This document shows positions 13,650 to 28,800 of a stretch of DNA of 64,000 nucleotides, in pieces. The DNA is from Antedon mediterranea (Eukaryota > Animalia > Echinodermata): contig NC_092679.1 of the NCBI RefSeq assembly GCF_964355755.1, positions 22,179,432-22,243,431 on the forward strand, in the 5' to 3' direction. Position numbers and translations under genes: made by a program. Under the pieces are notes generated by a model. It was not told the DNA's origin. It saw only the letters and a program-made list of their open reading frames with translations, and searched no databases. Numbering within the stretch: the stretch's first letter is position 1; every line of letters starts with the position of its first letter.

Positions 13650-14262
13650 TATTTAGTCATCAATTACAGTACATCATAATTACAGTACAACTGAGAACAG
13701 GGATCCTGCATAAAAAAAGCTATAGCTTCGTTTTTTTGTAGGACCCTTTTACAAGAACAAGTATATAGAACTTAAATAAACAAAGGTGTTGTTAATCAGC
13801 ATATAGTGATAAAAAGTATTTTTTAACCTGTTTTTTTATACATTTATTTTGTTTCTTTAAGATAACCGGTTTATTACCACCATTACAAGTGAATTCTTTC
13901 CACAATTTTGGTCCATATATGTGTATAAACTGTTGACTGCAAGTTAGTCTTGTGAAGGGAATTTCGAATTCAGTTTCTGTTCTGAGGTTATGAGTAGGCC
14001 TAATACTGTCACAGTAATTAAAAATATTTAAAATGTGATGTGGTAATTCATTGAATTTTACGTTTGCCATAAATCCTATGACGTTTACTTTGTAAATATC
14101 ATAAACGTTTAATATTTTTAGTTTCTTAAACAGTGGCTCTGAGGCTTGTCTGGATTTAGAGAAGGTAATGCATTTTACAGCTCTCTTTTGGAGTTTTAGT
14201 ATTACTTCTAACGTGCTCTTGTATGTATTTCCCCTACCTACTACTATGATTACATATTTTTG
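13650..14262 (-). mobile_element. 5'-truncated LINE (CR1/L2-group), ORF2 C-terminus plus 3' UTR
   Basis: ORF 13792-14412 contains LQKRAVKCITFS...SEPLFKKLKILNVYDIY...HNLR...YGPKLW, typical of the post-RT region of CR1/L2-group ORF2. It is followed by a 3' stem-loop (~13700-13748) and a short repeated tail. Confidence 0.8.
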
Positions 14263-14453
14263 GTTCGGTGTGTTCATTCTATAATCATAATGATTTATGA
14301 GGAGATTGATGACCAAGATGATAATGACGACAAAAATGTGAACGCGACAATACCTGGAAATGATTACCAGCAAATCAATGGCAACAATTATTGCGAGCAT
14401 CTTACCAAACATGGTGTCCTCTTAATGGAGCCCTCGAAATAGGGGTTTCCTCA

Positions 14454-17182: not shown

Positions 17183-17307
17183 TTATGATTTTTATACCCA
17201 ATGCAATTGTCATTTCCCTCTATTTTACATTCTGATTTTTTAAATGTTAACATACTTCCTAGTTACACTGTTTGATGACATAACACGACTTTCTTTTCAT
17301 CTTTCAG

Positions 17308-18227
17308 GTTTTGGAATGACGTCACCGTCAACAAACAATGGAAAAGTATTCTTAATTTTGTACGGAGTGCCCGGATGTGCAGCAACCATTTTATTTTTCA
17401 ATCTCTTTTTAGAAAGACTCATCACGTTTGTAGCTTATGTTTTAAAGGAATGGCACAAACGAAATGTAAAGAGAAGAGCATTAGCTGGAAATGGTCCAGT
17501 CGACCAAAGGATTGAAGCAGAGATTGATGAAGAACTGGAGAGGTGGAAGCCTTCTGTTTATCGAGTAATGGTGTTACTGGGAATAGCAGCGACTGTGATT
17601 GCGCTATGTGCATCGGCTATGTACACTTATGTTGAAAATTGGGAATATTTTGAGAGTTTCTATTTCTGTTTTGTAGCCTTCAGCACAATTGGATTTGGAG
17701 ATTACGTCACAAGTCAAAACAGTAACTATGATAGACAATTCGCATATCGATTTGGAAACTTTTGTTTTCTTGTAGCGGGAGTATGTTGTATATATTCAAT
17801 GTATAATGTTGGATCTATAGTTATCAAGCAATTCCTAAATCTTGTATTGAAAAAGTTAGAATGCCGTTGTTGTCAAAAGCCAAGACCGCGAGCGAGGCGG
17901 AACGCCATCACTCCCGGTCATGGAATGCGGCAACAAGGCGTCCAACGACAGGGAAGTGCAGGTAGCAAGAAAATCCAGAAAAAAGTGGAAGTCAAAGATA
18001 TTGATTCAAACTATGATAGCGACGCGGAGATGAATCACGGAGACGGCCGCCGTATGTCGGGTGAGATGATATCTCTCAAAGATTTTCTTGCACATAATAA
18101 AGTATCTCTGGCAGTTATGCAAAAACAATTGTATGAGAGTCAAAATAATCAGAACAGTCGGAGTAATGGGGCGCTTGGGATGCCAATTGGGGGCGTGGCC
18201 ATTGCTGATGATAAGCTACAAGAGTAG
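17308..18227 (+). CDS. KCNK13: THIK-type two-pore-domain K+ channel (KCNK12/13-like), last coding exon
   Basis: Acceptor ctttcag|GT at 17307/17308 (phase 1) gives G-FGMTSP, the end of pore 1. Then M2 GKVFLILYGVPGCAATILFFNLFLERLIT, pore 2 WEYFESFYFCFVAFSTIGFGD, M4 GVCCIYS and the THIK C-terminal motif GRRMSGEMISLKDFLAHNKVSLAVMQKQL. Stop TAG at 18225-18227. The ORF's first 21 residues are intron. No exon 1 was found upstream in the window. Confidence 0.95.
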
Positions 18228-18882
18228 ACAATTATGTTGATATGCAAAAAATATATTTCAATTACTCGAACAAAAAACGCCGATATAAACATTTCAAAGC
18301 CAAACAAATGTTATGTATGTAAGTTTTACACTTTGTCCAGACTATTTCTAATCATATGTTGAGCAAAAGTGGCCTTATTTCATATATTTAGGTCCTAAAT
18401 AAAACGTGTCCTGTGGCATTGCTGTATCTAGTATTTTTTAATAATTTAGGTTGTGTATACAAAATGAATTACAATAAGTTAATTGGTACGTGGTTAGAAA
18501 TCAGTAGCGTATTTTAATTATTTGTTATGAAATTAAAGTAAACGGATTAATGGGACTAAAAACCTGTATCGTACCAATTCGTACTAAAGTCGCACTAACG
18601 CACAACATTAAGTTACGTACATATAGCCCAAAGTGAAGGAAAACGCTATATAACCTTTGCTATAGGTCCGAATGTATAATGTAAACATATCAATATAGAC
18701 CCTATGCTATAGAAACATTGTATATTGTGTGAAAAAAATCTAGATTTACCGTCCCAAACTATTTTGTAGATTTGTTTTGCCAAAGGACTTGGCGTTTTAT
18801 ATTTAATGAACACAGCTTTATTTTAAAGTGAATTAATATCAAATATTAAATTATTGATGTGAAATTCAGGAACCAAGATATT

Positions 18883-19056
18883 AAGGGGATTCCGATTTGC
18901 GATGACCTATGACCTATGAACAGGTCATGTTAATTCATTGTGCGCATGCAGAGAGGTTAAGACGTAAATGTGACGGTGTCTTGGTGTTCAGGTCTTGTCG
19001 CCGACAGACACATTAATGGGTAGGTCATAGTTCATCGCAAATGGAAAACTCCCTAT
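18883..19056. mobile_element. MITE family C
   Basis: Inverted ends AGGGGATTCCGATTTGCGATGACCTATGACCTA / TAGGTCATAGTTCATCGCAAATGGAAAACTCCCTA. A related copy at ~26286-26473 ends in AAAATCGAAAACTCCCTA. Confidence 0.65.
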
Positions 19057-22000
19057 TATTAGCTTGGAATTGGTTTTGTGATTATTATTCCGACACTCGG
19101 ACCGATGTCCGAACGAAGCTGTGATTGGTGCAGCGCAACCTTCGGCCACTCACCCATTGTCGGAAAAATAATCACATCATTTTGACGAATTAACATTTTA
19201 CAAAAATATTAACATAAAAAAAACATAAAAATATCAAATGTAGAGTTACATAGATTTTAAAATATGATATAAGTAACTGAAAAAAGCTATTTTAAGAGCA
19301 TCACATTTATATAGTTGTTGGACGAGGCTTAATAGCTTCTCAATTTGATTACAGTAAGTCTATAATAATTATACATACCTGTACACTTATATTAATTCTC
19401 AATTATTGGTTCACCTCTACTCATACATTAATACTTGGATGTGAACCAATACATACATCATATCTTTTGTTTTTAATAAACGTAATGTATAACCCATAAA
19501 AAATATTTACAATTATAATAAACTCCTTCATTGATGTATACTCCTTCGGCTGATGCATCTATTTGCGTATTATTCTATGCAAGTTAAATAGACGGATTTC
19601 GATAGGTAGGGCCTAGGATATCGGAAACTAACGTACCTACTAAAAAAAGGAAATATACACTCCTTTTTATTGTACATATAATAAGATCTATATATAATGT
19701 AAAAAGTAACTTCCTTTTAACTAAAACTATTTATCGTTAAAAGGAATCAAAGATTTTTCAATATCTAAAAATGTCTTTTTTTTCTAAATGTGTGCGTGTG
19801 TGTGATGTGCTACGAACGTACGTCTGTGGAATATTAACGCGGTTTTGCGAATCATTTTAGTTTTTTTTTCAGAGAGTTTGGGGCAATATTGAGAATTGTA
19901 ATAATGTTATTCAGTGACCTTTGTCCTTTGTTTTATGCAGAATATAAATCGAAGCATTCCCACAATTTACCTTACTAAGCGTAGATAGATACATATATTA
20001 TTATTTATATTTTAGTTTGAATCAACGATTGAATAACACAAATAATTATACTGATTCAAACAATTAGTTTATTATGAAAAAAGAATTAATAATATAATAA
20101 TAATCTTGCAATTTATTATCAATGTGTTAATAATAATAATTTTATTATTTATATTAATTTAGGTTTTTTACGATCTTGTAAGTTTCACATTGAGCTCGGA
20201 TTTAGTCCGGTGGCCAGAGAAAGCTTCAGTCTATTTTTCGATTTCGATCACACGGTTCAATTCTTAAATACTACATCCATAAAAAAATAGATTCTTTATC
20301 TGGCCGCCACCGGACACGAATCCGTGCTCAGTGTAGATGACAATGGTGATGGTAGTGATGATAAGTGCGCTATTGCGCAGTAAAAAAAATTGCAAGCGCG
20401 CGCACATCACATGTTATGGGAATTTAACTTATGTTAAATCAACACCGGTAACCAAAATAAAGTGACAAAAGGAAGGCTTAAGCCACACAAATAAAGTAAA
20501 ATGGCCAAGTAATATTGAAATTTAGTTGCAAAATATATTTGGAGAATAATTATAAATTACAATTAAAAAAAATATTGATTGATGTTTCCATGGTTATTTA
20601 TTGTTATCACTTATTATCAATATATTATCACTTATCATCATTATTATATAGTTTTATATGTTACTATGTTTAAAAATGAGAATTTTGTAAACATTATCTT
20701 TAGCTTTAAAATTGTGTTGAGTTATTGTTGGTTTCATTAGCAACTGAGTAAAAAAAATCGTATTATAAAATTTACGACTAGGTGCATTGAATTACCTAAT
20801 CAAATTACCACAACATTGGTTACGCGTTTCCGTCATTGATTTTTACGACTTCGACGCGTCATACTAGGCGCGCCATACATAAATTAGACGTTTATCTAAA
20901 AGATGATGTTAACACGTTTGGCGAACGATTCAATGTTCATATATTACTTTTTGTTGTTAAGACCCCGGTTAAGACTTAAAATAATAACGAATAAAACACA
21001 TTATTTTCTATACGGCGTTAACATAAAGGAGCACAGGTACAGTAATAGTCGTAAAATGTGCATTTAAACATTTTTATTATGAACCCATTAAATTTAATAT
21101 CATTGCATGATTTCCTGAAAATTAATGAGAAAAACTTTACAGTTATTAAGGATTAATACCCATCAAATATGTTTTTATGAATATTTGAAATTACTCAATA
21201 TGTTATTAATATAGTATTTTACTTTATAATGCTATAACATAACCTGTCCATGTGCATTTATATATACACGTATGAAGTTTCGTACATAATTTAAAAAAAG
21301 ACACAAAAGTGGCGCGTGCGTACCATTATTATCAATGTTTAAACGCGCGCGTCAACGTTTGTATCTCCTTGTGGTGATATACTTTATCATGTACGAAGTA
21401 TAATGATTTTTCGTACATGTGTATGATTATTTTATAAAAGACACAAAAGTGACGCGCGCGTACCATTAATATCATTGTTTTAACGCGCGCGTCAAATTTT
21501 ATTGTGGTCTTCAAACACACCGACGTAGAATACACTATTTAGTCTTATTTCTGCTAAAATAGCATACAGCCCTAGAATTGTTATCGGCCATGTTCTCCAT
21601 ATTCAATTGTTTTAACTACAGTTCATGCTTAATTTAAAACTGTTACATAATATATGTATTGCGCAATTTGTGTGAATTATCAAGGCTAGGTTTTCATCAT
21701 CAATATTGTACACTAAGGCCATAAATAATATAAAAGGCGATGCGACAAGTTTTAACGTTTGAAAATCAATTTCTCCTCCCCTATTCCCGCAAGAATATCG
21801 CAAATCGACTTTAATATGCTTAAAACAATAATATTTCCCAAGTCTAGAAGCAGTGGGTTCATTAATGGCTGTTTCAAACATAGTAGAAAGGTCTTGTCAA
21901 AATGAGGTCTTTTAGATTCAAAGTACAGTTGTATAAGATGAAAAAAAAATGTATATATTATCATTGGTAGTTTACGGTAACTATGGTAACATAGCTATTA

Positions 22001-22713
22001 AGTATATCATATTATTTGGAAATAAAATCCTTTCTTTTAATCGCTATTTCATTGATTTTTGTAGTTAATTAACATAACATGAATAATTCATGAGCACTTT
22101 AGATGATAATTTTAAAGGTTGTTTTATTTTAAAATTCAGACAATCTTCTTACAATAATGCGCCAACGATAATTAGTTAAAAGTGCGTTTACACGGTTTCA
22201 TTAAACCATATTTTAATTTGTGATCACTTAAACTGTATGGCAATGTACAATAATATGTGATTCTACAGAGACGTGCCCTAACAATGGTGGGGGGGGGGGG
22301 GGGGGGCAAAAAGACTTGCCCTAAAAGTAAGGGCAGTCAACATTAGGGCAACAATACTGAATTCTTTTGTAATTCATAAGTATAATAGCTGAAACGGATG
22401 TCTTCTGAAAGAAGAAACTAAATGTTATTGCGGTAACAATTACACTCATCTGCAGTTATACATTATGCCTAATAGTAGGCCTGCAATATCAATTGGTGAT
22501 TCACACAAAAGGAAGAGATCTGTAGGTATAGTTGAGGGTATACAACGAATACCCTCATCTCTAAGGAATTGCATAGTGTCCAATTTGAAGCATCTTCTGA
22601 CTAAAGCCGCTATGACACGGAGTTGGAAAATACAGGCCTAGTTGCAAAATACACATGCCCACCAAATCACCAGAATTGCATAGTGTTAAAAAGTTCATTA
22701 AAATATCTACCAA

Positions 22714-23930
22714 CTAATTGATTATATGTGTAAAGATCTGTAATCGTTTATTGTCAACTTCACTGACGACAATTCTACCGTCTGTCAAAACCGTGACATC
22801 TTCAGGCCACTTTAGCTGTCCTTCTTTCGATCCTTTCTTTCCCAATGTTGTGATACACGTCCCTTTCATGTCCAAGATCTGGATTCGATTGTTGTCGCTG
22901 TCAGCGACAACTATCCTGCCTTGTTTGTCAACCGCGATGCCATTTGGAGATTTGAACTGGCCGAGTCCTTTGCCGCGCTTTCCAAATTTGTGATGGAATT
23001 CTCCATCTAGACTGAATATTTGTATGCAGTGGTTGTCCCGATCGGACACGATTATTTTATCTTGGTTGATAGCAAGGTAGGATGGGAAGCAGAATTGGCC
23101 TTCTGCCTTTCCTTGGCTACCAATTCGTCGAAGAAACTCTCCGTCAGAGGTAAAAACTTTGACAGAATGATTACAAGTATCGCACACGTAAATGTTATCG
23201 TCTGCATCGCATGCAACGCCTGCTGGGTAATATAACTCATCTTCCTTTTGACCCTTGCTGCCAAACTTTCGTAGAAACTGTCCATTTTTATCCCAGACAT
23301 GAATGCAGTTATTCACGTGATCAGAAACGACTATGTGACCTCTGTTATTGATGCAGACACCAGTTGGTGACGTGAAGTACTCACCACCTAATGCGTACGA
23401 TCCAAATGAGGTTTTAACCTCTCCACTTGCGTTCATGATTCTGACGCACTGGTTTCCTTCGTCAGCCACGGCAATCACGTCTCCGGACACGAAGGCGACT
23501 CCTTGCGGACCGCTATTGAGTTCTATGACTTCCGAATAAGTTTCTGGCTTTGAAGTTTCCTCGATTGTGTTCTTTACATTATACGGAGTATTTACTGTAT
23601 TGGAATTGTAAGGAGGAACATGGCAACCGTATTGCGAATACTGCAATCCACCGTGGGCCCCTTGAGGGATGTGACCTGGCTGAGCTGGCATGGCATAGGC
23701 AGGGGACGGGCTGTAGGCTGGTGGCGGTTGAGCTGGGTACGGGTAACTCGGTTGATATTGCGGTGGTTGTCCTGGATGATTGTTATGGTCAGCTGGAGCT
23801 CTGATCGGTGGCGTGTCCGATAAAGAAAGCTCGCTTATTTTTGTCTGTAAACTTTCAACGTACTCTCGTAATTCTCTCAGCATTTCCGCCGACTCTGTTC
23901 CTGGAAGTTTCATTTCTTCAGTGACGTCAT
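22714..23930 (-). CDS. Death-domain/NHL-repeat protein, exon 3 (coiled coil, P/Q/Y-rich linker, six NHL repeats)
   Basis: Acceptor ttttatcttttccag|AT at 23931/23930 (phase 1) is in frame with ORF 22714-23979. Six NHL blades: PQGVAF, PTGVCI, PAGVAC, PSYLAI, PNGIAV, PEDVTV, each followed by an IvVsD..N..iqif motif. Stop at 22714-22716. Confidence 0.92.
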
Positions 23931-24249
23931 CTGGAAAAGATAAAAAAACACAATCTGCTGGTAGATACGGGTAATTCAATTACTCTCAATTACAAGCTAC
24001 AGCTTTGCGAAATGATATTGCATAATTTGTCAACATAATTAAAGTTAAAAAAGCCGAATTTAATTTCAGTTTCCAAGGTCAGACTTCATGGTAATTATTC
24101 TATTGTGTTACACTATGTGTGTTTATTAAATAAAATCATAACCTTGTCTAATTCGATGCATGTCGAATTAAAAAGGAGAATTTTACATCATCATAAGACT
24201 GGCTTGTGTTTTCACGGTATATTATCTTCGATCATTACAAGGAAATATC

Positions 24250-24419
24250 AAGCGCAGTTCCCACTAGGACGTAACACACAGACGTAGAGGCAACGCAAGC
24301 GAGTTGACCAATGACAAGCAACAGTTCGAATAATCCATCGCTTGTGTGTTGGTCAAATCACTTACAGTGCGTTGCGCTTCCGTCCTTGCGTTGCGTTTCT
24401 AGTGGGAACAAAGCATTAG
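24250..24419. mobile_element. MITE family A copy in intron 2 of the Death-NHL gene
   Basis: AAGCGCAGTTCCCACTAGGACGTAAC ... CTAGTGGGAACAAAGCATTA. Confidence 0.85.
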
Positions 24420-25102
24420 TGATAATATTGGAGAAGTAAAGGCGATACGATGGTGTTGATAGTGACGATGGCGGTGATAACGTCAGTTAAAAACCCCAGA
24501 ACTTAAAGGTAGCGTTATATACGCGACTAACAATGTTTCTGTCTGAACTACAGAAGGCGGATTAGTGTAAGACAACTGTTACGCTTCGTATCTGGAGTTG
24601 GAATAACGATGATACAGATAATCAATAATGATAATGATCACGGTTGAAAACAATAAACTTGTTTATTTTATGCATTTTATTGCGTTCATTGTAGTTATCG
24701 AGTTACTCTATTCCATTGTATTAATCACGGTTAGACTAATAAACTATCTCATATAATATTGATTAAACGCAAAATATGAATATATATCGCTTTAAAGTAC
24801 ATTAACGGTTATATAGAATGTGAGTACTTTTAAACGATTTTATTTGAATAATATTAATTCCGTAGTATTTTAACCACATTGACGTAATTTAAATCCATCT
24901 CATTTTTACGGCCACCGTACCTTTAGACTAATATCATTTAGGAGAGTTTGGTCCAATCTTAAAGTCTGTCACAGTTATCAAAGTAGAAGACTTAGATACC
25001 TGTTATCCATAAATTATATCCATACGTTGCTCAATTATTTTTTAATATGAAAATTAAATAGTTTAACAAGCAGAGCATGACGCCGCCGCGCGGCAGACCT
25101 AC

Positions 25103-25360
25103 CTTGATGGAACGCCGCAAGAATGTCATTGCGACCAACTTTCTCCAGCGTCTTGCAAAGTAGTTTCACCGTCTCAATCGATGAGCCTTTCTTGCGTTTG
25201 AACGAGAGAAGCATGGCGAATATCTGGTTTTCTGTTGTTGCGTTGTCCCTCTTAAGCCGGTCCAGTTCACTATAACTGATGCCTAGGTAGGATGCGATGG
25301 ACTCCCATTCGTTGCCGAGGTCACTGGCAATGTTTCGCAGAAGTTGCTCCTTTAGGAGAT
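25103..25360 (-). CDS. Death-domain/NHL-repeat protein, exon 2 (Death domain)
   Basis: Acceptor gtctttccag|AT and donor CAAG|gtagg. The exon is 258 nt, phase 1-1 and stop-free: DLLKEQLLRNIASDLGNEWESIASYLGISYSELDRLKRDNATTENQIFAMLLSFKRKKGSSIETVKLLCKTLEKVGRNDILAAFHQ. It fits the Death-domain pattern (iA..LG..W..lA..LG.s..el..i......Q...ML..w/f......t...L...L...gR.Di). It is absent from the ORF track. Confidence 0.88.
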
Positions 25361-25458
25361 CTGGAAAGACAATGATACATTAGTTGGAAATGAATTAGGG
25401 AAAGAATTTTAGAATTTTTAGATATAAATGTGGCTATAGACCCGTGGAAATATGGCAT

Positions 25459-25605
25459 TAGCTTGTTTCCAAAGTAACGCAACGTAAGTGATTTTACCAA
25501 TCATAAGCGATGGATTATTTGAATAGTGGCTTGTCAGTGGTCAATCCGCTTGCGTAGCGTGTACGTACGTCCTGGCGCTGCGTGTCTAGTGGGAACCACG
25601 TTTTA
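25459..25605. mobile_element. MITE family A copy in intron 1 of the Death-NHL gene
   Basis: TAGCTTGTTTCC...GACGCAACG-type internal sequence, ending CTAGTGGGAACCACGTTTTA. Confidence 0.75.
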
Positions 25606-25806
25606 GTTGGAGATACGTAGACATCATACTTATATATCATTGCATTGTGATGATAATGGTAAAGTAATATTTATAGGACTTTAGTCCTGCGTAAATAAAA
25701 AAAAACCAAGCATAATGTACTTTTTTTTAAATGTTTTAAAAAATATGCGGTTTATCCAGGAAAGAGTAAAGAGACAAAAATAAATATTCAAAATAATTTA
25801 TTCTAC

Positions 25807-25840
25807 CTGGCTTCTTCCGCAGTCCGCCCGATGACGTCAT
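25807..25840 (-). CDS. Death-domain/NHL-repeat protein, probable first coding exon (MTSSGGLRKKP)
   Basis: ATG at 25840-25838, then 34 nt to donor CCAG|gtaga. This is phase 1 and matches the Death-domain exon. A plausible upstream acceptor (atttcag|) lies at 25936/25935. The spliced CDS is 34+258+1217 = 1509 nt (502 aa). Confidence 0.7.
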
Positions 25841-28800
25841 TGTATTGCGTGCGGACAGTACAGTGTTTTTATAGACTTAATTCTTTTATTTCCTTTTAAC
25901 AGCTGATTTGCGTTTTTAATGGCAGTTAACAGTGACTGAAATGTTACAAAAATACATAATGTTATTTGTAATAATTAACCTGTTTACAAATACGTGACGA
26001 TTTCATCTAAGTCTTCTTTGAAGAAATTCTAAATAAACTAACAACATCAACATCATTAGCAGGATGTCGGAAGCAGAACAAGAACAAGAGGTATTTTGAA
26101 TGTAAATGTCTTACCGAACCTCTATATAGGGGACATTTTCAAGACCAAAACAAAAAGGCTGTGTAAAACATATATTTCCATTCGTCCATGTCTATAGGAC
26201 AGGTTTCCTTCTTAAAAAGGGGTGTCCCAGATGAAGGGTTCCATACTGTAGGCCTATTTATCAAAATCATCAGCGATGTGTACAACTTGCGACGACCGAC
26301 GACTTAGGTGTCTAGTCATGTTATCTTTGTGCGCATGCGGTGATGTTAGGACGTGTTTCCACTATCCCCATCTCGACACACCTTTGATGGTGTTTAGGGC
26401 CAGGCGACGACCTACGACATTAACTAATTAACCTAATTCGGTCGTCGTCGTCTAAAATCGAAAACTCCCTAATGTTGACGCTTGTACACGCGAAGCAGGT
26501 TGTGTGTGTGTGTGTTTGAAACAAGTCTTATTTACCCGGGTGATAATGCGCCAATGACGTCATCAAATTAAAGGGGTTGACCCAGAACATTTTAAACGAG
26601 AGAGTGGTAACATATATTAGTCCTTCGTAGTTTTTCAAAAATAGAACGAACATTCATTTTAGCTGCAAAGGGGGAAGCGCTCCCGCGCCTGAATAACAAG
26701 GGCCTGCATTTATTTGTTGCCGGCATACTGGAAACCTCTTTATTTAACTAAACCTTACACCATGTAGGCCTAAATGGTTTATTCCTTAGCAACAACTTTT
26801 AATATTGTCAAGTTAACTTCTTAGGGTCAATGAACGCAAAAGGAACCTGGATTTTATTACAATACTTCGAGTTTAATGCACGCGTGTAACATTCGTATGA
26901 CACGAGAGGACGTATGTGGCATTATTGTAATAATACCGTTCCGGGCAAGGACCAACTATAACTTGTACATCGGGTAAAACAAGTTTTGAAAATAAGTATA
27001 CACGCGAGTGCCACTCGTGATTTGCTCGCATGGGTTCACAACAGGTTACTTGTTTTACACAGAGACGGGCAAGATACGGTAGTTAGTAGAAATCAAGCTA
27101 ACACTCTCTGGTTATCGCGAACGACGCAGAATAGAAATGATTAATTCCATTTAGATTTCGAAATGTCACATAAATTAAGGAGATTCGAAACACATTTATT
27201 ATCATGTCTTTGAGTACAAAACCTCCAAGTACTTAACTGAGCATGCGTGCGCGTGTCGTCTGAAACCACTTGACATGATTTGCAGATGATTTTAAATTCG
27301 AATTGAAAATACTTCATTGAACAAGTTGAACTATGATATTGGTGTAGGTAATTAGGCCTACCGTACCTTCAAGTGTAAATATAAAGAGGTCGAGGGTTCG
27401 AGATTACGTGTTGGATCCCAAGGTGTAGGCTATGTGTGTGGGGTGAAGGGAGACGAGGTGTGGCGAGGGGGGGGGGGGGGGGGTTTGGAGAGGGGGAGGT
27501 AGAAATCCAACAAATAGACCTATCTCCTTTTGACAGACTTTTAATATTGTCAGAACTCTTTCGTTAAAAATCCTAAAGTTACGTTATAAACAATATGGTT
27601 TCTAATAAACTCTTTCCTTTAACAACATAAAACGCCGTCTAAATATGAATGAATAATCAATATTTGAAAGAAAAATCTAGGCCTAAATAGGCTTAAAACC
27701 TACAATACAATAGAACCAATTTCACTTGTCAAAGTCCGCACTACCTAATATAAAATTTACTAATAATAGTCCTATAATATAACAATAAATCTTACCTTAT
27801 ATTTCAATACATTTCCAAATATGGATAACGTGTATCATATCCAGCACAAGGACTATTTTATTGCAACTCCCGTCCGAATAAAGCACATGAAAAAAGTTTT
27901 AAAATATCATGGCGCGGCTGAAGTATTGCCTTAAGTTTGATATCGGTGTTAAAAAGTTAAGAATTAAACAACAAATGGCAGTGAAAATAGATAAATCACT
28001 CTCCAGGATGCTGTCTAATTAACACTCTTTGTTTTCAGACTTTATTTACAATCCGTTTCCAACAATAAAATGATTAATTTTCCTTCCCTGTTTTTCGGGA
28101 CGTCTTTTTCTGTGGAATGCGCGTCTTAATTTGAACGGAAATTAGAGCATCCTGCATGAGTCAAGCGTTTTAAAAAGATTTTTGAAAAAAAATAATAATA
28201 TAGATTATTGACAAATATTATAAAGTACATAATTATGATTATATGAATATTATTATATGATTATAACAACATTGAACACTAATAAACAAATCAAAATTAC
28301 AATACTGTATCGCAAAAATTATTAATAGCAATACCAGCCGATTCTTCTTGGTATTTATCTGGAGTTTGCCAGTATCATGGCAAATTCCATGATATAATGT
28401 CGCATGTGACGACGGTGTAACAGCACAGTTTTACAACATCTGGAATCGCGTGTAAAAATACACTTCAGTCTTGACCGTAAGCTAGGTTGTAAATGGCAAA
28501 AAAGGGGGTATTTTTTTTTGGAAAGGGGATTAAAACTATGCTGTATATTGTCGAATTAAAAAATAACAACAATATGTGTATCTTCATGGATGTGTGGGGG
28601 TGGGTGTTGGAGGTGACGAGTGATAAAGAAAGAAAGAATGAGAAAGGCTACTTCTAAATCCTTCGCAGAAGGCCGGCTATAGAAAGGACACAACGAAGAA
28701 AAATATATGATTTATTAACAATGAAAACAAGTCGATTGGCGCAACGATAATAACTGCGTCGGTTATTATTGAATTTAAGGTCGACTTAGCTAAGTCGGGC

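What the first reader, a model, noticed from the sequence alone, without database searches (positions are those of the whole stretch)
22714..25840. Hidden three-exon gene fusing a Death domain to a six-bladed NHL propeller: candidate immune or cell-death sensor-adaptor
Seen in sequence: the 421-aa NHL ORF is not a stand-alone TRIM fragment. Canonical GT-AG, phase-compatible junctions connect an ATG exon (25807-25840), an unannotated 258-nt exon with a full Death-domain signature (25103-25360) and the NHL exon into a ~502-aa protein. Its layout is DD - short coiled coil (AEMLRELREYVESLQTKISEL) - P/Q/Y linker - 6xNHL. Established: metazoan NHL propellers usually sit behind RING/B-box/coiled-coil modules (TRIM2/3/32/71, Brat, Mei-P26), and several bind RNA. 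Death domains nucleate signalling filaments (MyD88, FADD, RIPK1, PIDD) and are shuffled onto new sensor domains in sea urchin and amphioxus. Inference: the RING/B-box is replaced by a DD, giving a receptor-like design in which the NHL domain senses a ligand (possibly RNA) and the DD relays to caspase or NF-kB signalling. I do not know a characterised protein with this architecture.
Basis: partly seen in the sequence, partly recalled or inferred. Interest (0 to 1): 0.8.

Follow-up and report, generated by a model that had tools for sequence, protein, structure and literature searches.

The report
Feather-star death-domain propeller adaptor
A feather-star gene, already predicted in RefSeq, places a death domain in front of a six-bladed propeller that lacks the RNA-gripping residues of its TRIM71 relatives, so it likely binds a protein and would relay that to cell-death or immune signalling, a pairing that also occurs in starfish and brittle-star proteins.

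Summary
The gene is real but not hidden. The three GT-AG exons give a 502-aa protein identical to RefSeq XP_071963688.1 of the crinoid Antedon mediterranea. Exon 2 is a Death domain (Pfam E 2e-12) and exon 3 ends in six NHL repeats. One RNA-like contig joins exon 1 to exon 2; the exon 2-3 joint was not seen directly. No RING, B-box or filamin exon was found in the window. The RNA-sensor idea is not supported: the propeller keeps 1 of 14 LIN41 RNA contacts and has an acidic top face; its nearest solved relative is the protein-binding Thin domain. The architecture is not unique: 6 of 149 related death-domain proteins, all from echinoderms, carry NHL-like propellers, one (brittle star) also without B-box. 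This scan noted similar sea-urchin genes before. I found no paper describing Death+NHL proteins. Best reading: a RING-less, TRIM-derived adaptor made by exon shuffling, likely linking a protein ligand to death-domain signalling. Function is untested.

The parts
25807..25840 (-). Exon 1, coding part (ATG + 11 codons, phase-1 donor). In-frame TAA at 25877-25879 closes the frame 13 codons upstream; the RNA-like contig continues to 25937 as 5' UTR
25361..25806 (-). Intron 1, 446 nt, GT..AG; skipped by one contig of run X1 (96 letters on the shorter side, depth 4.69)
25103..25360 (-). Exon 2, symmetric phase 1-1, 86 codons: Death domain (residues 12-97)
   Evidence: Pfam E 2.2e-12; AF2 pLDDT 94.5; nearest solved PIDD by sequence E 1e-7 and by fold, TM 0.82, E 1.8e-3
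23931..25102 (-). Intron 2, 1172 nt, GT..AG; joint not seen directly in RNA, present in the RefSeq model
23821..23889 (-). Three-heptad amphipathic helix, residues 112-134 (a/d: L115 L118 V122 L125 I129 L132); coiled coil predicted only
23557..23817 (-). Pro/Tyr/Gln-rich linker, residues 136-222, likely disordered; two PPxY-type motifs (153-156, 167-170), not beyond chance (p about 0.08)
22726..23538 (-). Six-bladed NHL propeller, residues 229-499, 24 strands; canonical TRIM-NHL type with an acidic/aromatic top face
22714..23930 (-). Exon 3, coding part with stop TAG; an X1 contig covers 22318-23932 and ends two shared letters past the acceptor

Best explanation
The locus is a three-exon crinoid gene whose predicted 502-aa product is likely a cytosolic adaptor: the NHL propeller likely binds a protein ligand on its top face, and the death domain would then recruit another death-domain protein to start cell-death or immune signalling. 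Shown: exon structure, intron 1 splicing, both domains, no RING/B-box, loss of the LIN41 RNA pocket. Inferred: (1) origin by a symmetric phase 1-1 death-domain exon joining a TRIM-NHL-derived exon and replacing the RING/B-box head, so it has no ligase activity of its own; (2) a protein rather than RNA ligand; (3) clustering on a multivalent ligand, helped by the short helix, brings the death domains together; (4) the partner is a FADD/RAIDD-type adaptor or a death-domain caspase, as reported for a sea-cucumber DD-NLR.
For: Spliced product identical to the RefSeq model; intron 1 joint in an RNA-like contig. Death domain folds with pLDDT 94.5 and is nearest to PIDD and RIPK1 among solved sequences. 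It is 29-41% identical to the heads of 8 NACHT proteins and 33-37% to the heads of 6 echinoderm death-propeller proteins; 9 of 30 relatives scanned carry NACHT. Propeller: best solved match Thin by sequence and fold (TM 0.91, 41% identity); Thin NHL binds tropomyosin, aldolase and Pglym (PMC7105379, passages). Top face 1 basic/5 acidic of 24 positions against 9/1 in all 8 TRIM71 rows. Death + NHL-like propeller recurs in 6 of 149 relatives. Amphioxus DED-TRADD-N-linker-WD40 proteins have the same logic (PMC8195603, passages). An echinoderm DD-NLR and DD-caspase are reported to drive lytic death (PMC13673367, passages).
Against: No functional, expression-induction or binding data. The exon 2-3 joint was not seen, and no X1 contig at 98% covered 25103-25264. 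No close relative: best other hit 43% among the 120 listed of 696, and only itself among 409 candidates for residues 8-150, so neither conservation nor top-face variability could be measured. The gene is single in the window and flanked by housekeeping genes. Non-immune death domains score nearly as well in the fold search (ankyrin G TM 0.87, THOC1 0.77). The death-domain tree is unresolved.
Confidence: 0.5

Rival explanations
1. Non-immune scaffold or brake: the death domain is a plain docking module (as in ankyrins or THOC1) or a decoy that caps NLR/caspase assemblies, and the propeller keeps a Thin/NHL-1-like role on cytoskeletal or metabolic proteins.
For: Nearest propeller is Thin/NHL-1 type. 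Ankyrin G death domain has the highest TM-score, 0.87. Single gene among housekeeping neighbours. No enzyme or NTPase switch in the chain.
Against: By sequence PIDD (E 1e-7) and RIPK1 (3e-4) beat ankyrin-3 (7e-3). Many named relatives of the domain head NLRs. The top face differs from the NHL-1-like row at most positions.
Confidence: 0.25
2. The death-domain exon is a minor or neutral passenger: a recently captured symmetric cassette that is often skipped, the main product being a 416-aa propeller protein or a form with another 5' exon.
For: Skipping exon 2 keeps the frame (416 aa). The X1 contig on exon 3 stops at 23932, where exon 2 (..CAAG) and exon 1 or intron 2 (..CCAG) diverge, as a fork would cause. 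Inverted copies of a repeat flank exon 2. No orthologue found.
Against: The contig joining exons 1 and 2 is not broken at the exon 1 donor, as a common 1-3 skip would be expected to cause (inference). The domain is intact and 43% or less identical to any relative compared, which fits an old, maintained exon. RefSeq includes it.
Confidence: 0.15
3. One reading: the propeller senses RNA (for example viral RNA) and signals through the death domain.
For: LIN41/TRIM71 and Brat NHL domains bind RNA, by different surfaces, and prediction for diverged NHLs is called highly speculative (PMC5908797, passages). The propeller is 35-39% identical to TRIM71 rows.
Against: 1 of 14 LIN41 contacts kept (only the Tyr658 equivalent), 0 of 8 basic contacts, two replaced by Glu/Asp; domain pI 6.1 against 8.3. 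It falls outside the TRIM71 clade (100/100). Brat is far more distant (E 6e-34 against 4e-70 for Thin). Brat contacts were not mapped.
Confidence: 0.1

Closest known systems
TRIM-NHL subfamily C and TRIM-like derivatives (Thin/Abba, NHL-1, TRIM71/LIN41, TRIM2/3, Brat, Malin; PMC3503706, passages)
   Same: C-terminal six-blade NHL propeller; 41% identity and TM 0.91 to Thin, 42% in register to an NHL-1-like protein; shares the blade-4 P-x-Y and blade-6 Glu of Thin/NHL-1.
   Different: No RING, B-box, long coiled coil or filamin; a death domain heads the chain; LIN41 RNA pocket absent.
Echinoderm Death-(B-box-coiled coil)-propeller predicted proteins: XP_022086118.1, XP_022098513.1 (Acanthaster), XP_038064936.1 (Patiria), XP_072049041.1 (Amphiura), kinase form XP_022109547.1
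   Same: N-terminal death domain of the same pool (33-37% identity) and a C-terminal NHL-like propeller; the Amphiura protein (468 aa) also lacks RING and B-box.
   Different: Their propellers are divergent, only 21-27% identical to this one and form their own 100/100 clade; three carry a B-box-like stretch. A shared origin is not rejected (AU p 0.34). None is characterised in the papers I found.
Amphioxus DED-TRADD-N-low-complexity linker-WD40 proteins (Kaur et al. 2021, PMC8195603, passages)
   Same: Death-fold head, flexible low-complexity linker, C-terminal propeller proposed to recognise invaders.
   Different: DED plus TRADD-N and WD40 there, in families of 13-129 variable copies; here Death plus NHL, no TRADD-N hit, and no close paralogue found.
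Pyrin/TRIM20 (recalled; also named in earlier scan notes) and echinoderm DD-NLRs
   Same: A death-fold domain in place of the RING on a TRIM-derived tail (pyrin); same death-domain pool as DD-NACHT-LRR receptors.
   Different: Pyrin has PYD, B-box, long coiled coil and B30.2 (recalled); NLRs have a NACHT switch. This protein has neither.

Membership tests
TRIM (RBCC) ligases | N-terminal RING finger | tested here: not met
   No RING by Pfam; no RING exon in six-frame profile, tblastn and motif scans of the window; frame closed by TAA 13 codons above the ATG inside the RNA-like contig
TRIM (RBCC) ligases | One or two B-boxes and a long coiled coil | tested here: not met
   No B-box hit; only a three-heptad helix
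TRIM-NHL propeller (NHL repeat domain) | Six NHL repeats forming a six-bladed propeller | tested here: met
   6 Pfam stretches; AF2 pTM 0.92, 24 strands; TM 0.91 to Thin
TRIM71/LIN41 RNA-binding NHL subfamily | Basic top-face pocket with the 14 contact residues listed in PMC5908797 | tested here: not met
   1 of 14 kept against 14 of 14 in two TRIM71 controls; outside the TRIM71 clade
Brat-type ssRNA-binding NHL | Brat base-reading surface | not tested
   Brat contacts not mapped; Brat matches at 27% identity, TM 0.78
NHL-1/Thin subfamily (as source of the propeller) | Groups with NHL-1/Thin in an NHL tree | tested here: inconclusive
   Best pairwise match, but in the 44-row tree it is a long branch beside 13 unnamed TRIM-NHL rows at 94/91, unstarred; only one NHL-1-like row was available
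Death domain (DD subfamily of death folds) | Six-helix death fold with DD signature | tested here: met
   Pfam 47.4 bits; helical model pLDDT 94.5 with helices 1 and 2 merged by DSSP; the ten best fold matches are all death domains, none at E 0.001 or better
Signalling death-domain adaptors (PIDD/RIPK1/FADD type) | Homotypic assembly with a partner death domain | not testable with these tools
   Needs binding assays; no partner sequence from this genome was available
NLR receptors | NACHT NTPase domain | tested here: not met
   No NACHT in the gene or in 114 further open stretches of the window, of 619 of 38 aa or more
Diversifying propeller receptor families of invertebrates | Many paralogues with a variable top face | tested here: inconclusive
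   No relative above 43% in the 120 listed; one copy in the window; whole genome not held

The most novel reading that the evidence does not exclude
Echinoderms have more than once bolted a mobile phase 1-1 death-domain exon onto NHL propellers of different ancestry, creating an undescribed class of NTPase-free cytosolic sensors that wire a propeller ligand straight to death-domain caspases. The feather-star gene is the minimal form, built on a canonical Thin/NHL-1-type propeller, and skipping its symmetric exon 2 would give a ligand-binding inhibitor from the same gene.
Probability: 0.25. Interest if true: 0.7.

Novelty: new variant of a known kind. Interest (0 to 1): 0.42.

Why it matters
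Death folds shuffled onto repeat domains are a known theme in marine invertebrates, but Death+NHL was not described in the papers I could search. If these proteins signal, they add a small, two-domain, easily expressed model of how a ubiquitin-ligase substrate-binding propeller becomes a sensor, parallel to pyrin in vertebrates. If not, this is one more uncharacterised domain shuffle in a death-domain-rich genome.

Tried and rejected
Whole genome not held, so paralogues and partners in Antedon were not counted. No run on record as RNA was listed; X1 is a guess, supported by its spliced contig. The exon 2-3 joint was not among the joints listed in either laying (283 joints were not shown); a hole in contigs proves nothing, and contig depths (33.6 on exon 3, 4.7 on exons 1-2) cannot rank parts of a gene. 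Complex prediction for two copies of residues 10-137 gave no answer (score 0.00, alignment not used): no evidence either way. Search for longer relatives returned mainly multi-propeller microbial proteins, 40% identity at best, no Death family among the 120 listed of 1094. ESM Atlas: top feature hit a rotifer cluster named 'DED domain-containing' with NHL in 100% of 67 members, score 0.81, under the 0.9 bar, a lead only; the N-terminal part gave Death clusters only. A mixed DD+NHL alignment (A3) misaligned and was not used. Independent origin of the propeller could not be shown (AU p 0.341); the DD tree was unresolved (3 of 30 branches starred). Two PPxY motifs as a substitute E3-recruiting signal: p about 0.08 in 50000 shuffles, not claimed. 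A Tyr aligned with a PIDD helix-3 Tyr (its numbering as Y814 is recalled; 4 of 44 relatives have Tyr there): one residue, not claimed. Three X1 variants in exon 3 (two missense, one silent) are too few to test selection. Literature searches for the architecture listed no paper on Death+NHL proteins; I read no supplements, and the architecture tables of PMC8195603 could list such forms.

Full report
Observation. Joined by coordinates they give 1509 nt and 502 aa with a single stop; both introns are GT..AG and phase 1. Exon 2 is a Death domain (47.4 bits, cut-off 22.6) and exon 3 holds six NHL repeats. The product is letter for letter P0001, RefSeq XP_071963688.1, 'uncharacterized protein' of Antedon mediterranea. 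So the gene is predicted in a public annotation, though unnamed.

Splicing evidence. Five runs hold the stretch, none on record as RNA; X1 is guessed RNA and holds 47% of the words. In X1 one 227-nt contig joins 25807-25937 to 25265-25360, skipping the 446-nt intron 1. Another covers 22318-23932 and ends two letters past the exon 3 acceptor, at the point where the end of exon 2 (CAAG) differs from the ends of intron 2 and exon 1 (CCAG). Contigs of X2-X4 run straight through that site. This is indirect support for a splice at 23930 but does not show which exon is joined. An in-frame TAA at 25877-25879 lies within the spliced contig, so this transcript has no upstream RING or B-box. Profile, tblastn and motif scans of 2124 open stretches found one death domain, one propeller and no RING, B-box or filamin piece. 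Gemin6 begins 3.5 kb upstream on the other strand, and a K2P channel exon lies downstream.

Death domain. AlphaFold2 gives pLDDT 94.5. PIDD is the nearest solved sequence (E 1e-7), then RIPK1 (3e-4); the fold search ranks PIDD first (TM 0.82, E 1.8e-3; no match reached 0.001), with ankyrin G at TM 0.87. A full HMMER search gave 246 relatives at E 0.001, 150 listed. Of 30 that I picked for Pfam, 9 carry NACHT; the ten looked up are from starfish and a brittle star. Identity to 32 compared domains is 28-43%, with no subgroup clearly nearest and an unresolved tree. Among 44 short relatives, 20 show Gly plus a residue compatible with a G|gt donor just after the domain, against a background of 17%; the test window was chosen after seeing the alignment, so this only hints that the domain travels as a phase-1 exon.

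Propeller. The model has pTM 0.92 and 24 strands. Thin is the best solved match by sequence (E 4e-70 against 1e-60 for TRIM71) and by fold (TM 0.91, 41%); in-register identity is 42% to an NHL-1-like protein, up to 41% to unnamed TRIM-NHL rows and 35-39% to the TRIM71 rows among the 60 printed of 120. Kumari et al. (PMC5908797, passages) list 14 LIN41 residues that contact RNA. Mapped blade by blade, two TRIM71 controls keep 14 of 14 and this protein keeps 1; of 24 top-face positions it has 1 basic and 5 acidic, against 9 and 1 in all 8 TRIM71 rows. The other 43 rows range from 0 to 6 basic, so non-TRIM71 top faces vary widely. The same paper finds no conservation of either RNA surface in the NHL-1 subfamily and warns against predicting; TRIM2/3 faces are mixed in charge (PMC9634614, passages). 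Thin NHL binds proteins directly (PMC7105379, passages); Thin's role in muscle death needs its RING, not its NHL (PMC6030163, passages), so it gives no precedent for this propeller in apoptosis.

How unusual is the pairing? An NHL profile hit 6 of the 149 other listed death-domain proteins at E 1e-10 or better. Pfam puts Death above cut-off in all six and NHL above cut-off in four; two have a B-box above cut-off, one a weak one, one a kinase, one ZU5 and several death domains, and the Amphiura protein has no B-box or RING. Their propellers are 21-27% identical to this one (five compared) and form a separate 100/100 clade in a 44-row tree, while the Antedon row is a long branch beside unnamed TRIM-NHL proteins at 94/91. 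Holding all seven together is not rejected (AU p 0.341), so separate origins are suggested by the large sequence gap but not shown. No orthologue was found: best other hit 43% among 120 listed of 696, only itself among 409 candidates for residues 8-150; relatives over 50% identity would be hidden behind P0001.

Mechanism. Shown: domain order, folds by prediction, loss of RING/B-box and of the LIN41 pocket. Inferred: the propeller binds a protein on its acidic/aromatic face; a multivalent ligand and the three-heptad helix cluster the chains; the flexible linker lets the death domains meet and recruit a partner. That death domains assemble homotypically is established knowledge. Echinoderms have candidate partners: FADD, and a DD-caspase reported to act with a DD-NLR in lytic coelomocyte death (PMC13673367, passages; the primary paper was not read). 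I put this at 0.5, a non-immune scaffold or decoy at 0.25, a mostly skipped passenger exon at 0.15 and an RNA sensor at 0.1.

Comparison with print. Domain shuffling of death folds in amphioxus is described (PMC2575513, passages), as are DED-TRADD-N-linker-WD40 proteins (PMC8195603, passages) and TRIM-like proteins that lost RBCC parts (PMC3503706, passages). PMC4977500 (passages) was read only for the PIDD helix-3 Tyr. Seven searches for the architecture (listings and abstract starts only) showed no paper on Death+NHL proteins; subscription papers and supplements were not seen.

Verdict. A real, annotated but uncharacterised gene; a new variant of the known death-fold-plus-repeat design, recurrent in echinoderms. 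It is not a TRIM and not a LIN41-type RNA binder. Interest 0.42.

Noticed in passing
window 24282-24420 and 25476-25607: Two copies of a high-copy repeat sit in introns 2 and 1 and form inverted arms (65 nt, 83%; 25 nt, 88%) around the symmetric death-domain exon. Such pairs can favour exon skipping (recalled), but the element is abundant, so chance is likely.
   Followed up: partly
window 17244-18227 (+) and 18228-22277: Last coding exon of a two-pore potassium channel (Ion_trans_2). X1 contigs run on from it to 21405 and 21510-22277, so its long 3' UTR may meet or overlap the 3' end of the death-domain gene (AATAAA at 22128 on the minus strand). Strand unknown.
   Followed up: no
   Followed up: partly
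window 13792-14421 (-): 209-aa open stretch with no Pfam hit whose C-terminal part resembles the tail of a LINE reverse-transcriptase ORF (recalled resemblance, untested).
   Followed up: no
P0225 (XP_022109547.1, Acanthaster planci): Death domain - protein kinase - NHL propeller in one predicted protein, a RIPK-like kinase with a propeller tail.
   Followed up: no
P0123 (XP_038062863.1, Patiria miniata): Four death domains, an NHL-like propeller and ZU5/UPA, a PIDD-like layout with a propeller.
   Followed up: no
ESM Atlas, first feature hit: Rotifer cluster of 67 members, 555 aa, auto-named DED domain-containing, NHL in all members; a possible death-fold+NHL family outside echinoderms. Score 0.81, lead only.
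   Followed up: no
window 22726-23538, blades 1-4: The Arg of the usual N-[HN]-R motif is replaced by Cys, Cys, Ser, Cys in blades 1-4, and the propeller has 9 Cys against 4-5 in two relatives; meaning unknown.
   Followed up: no
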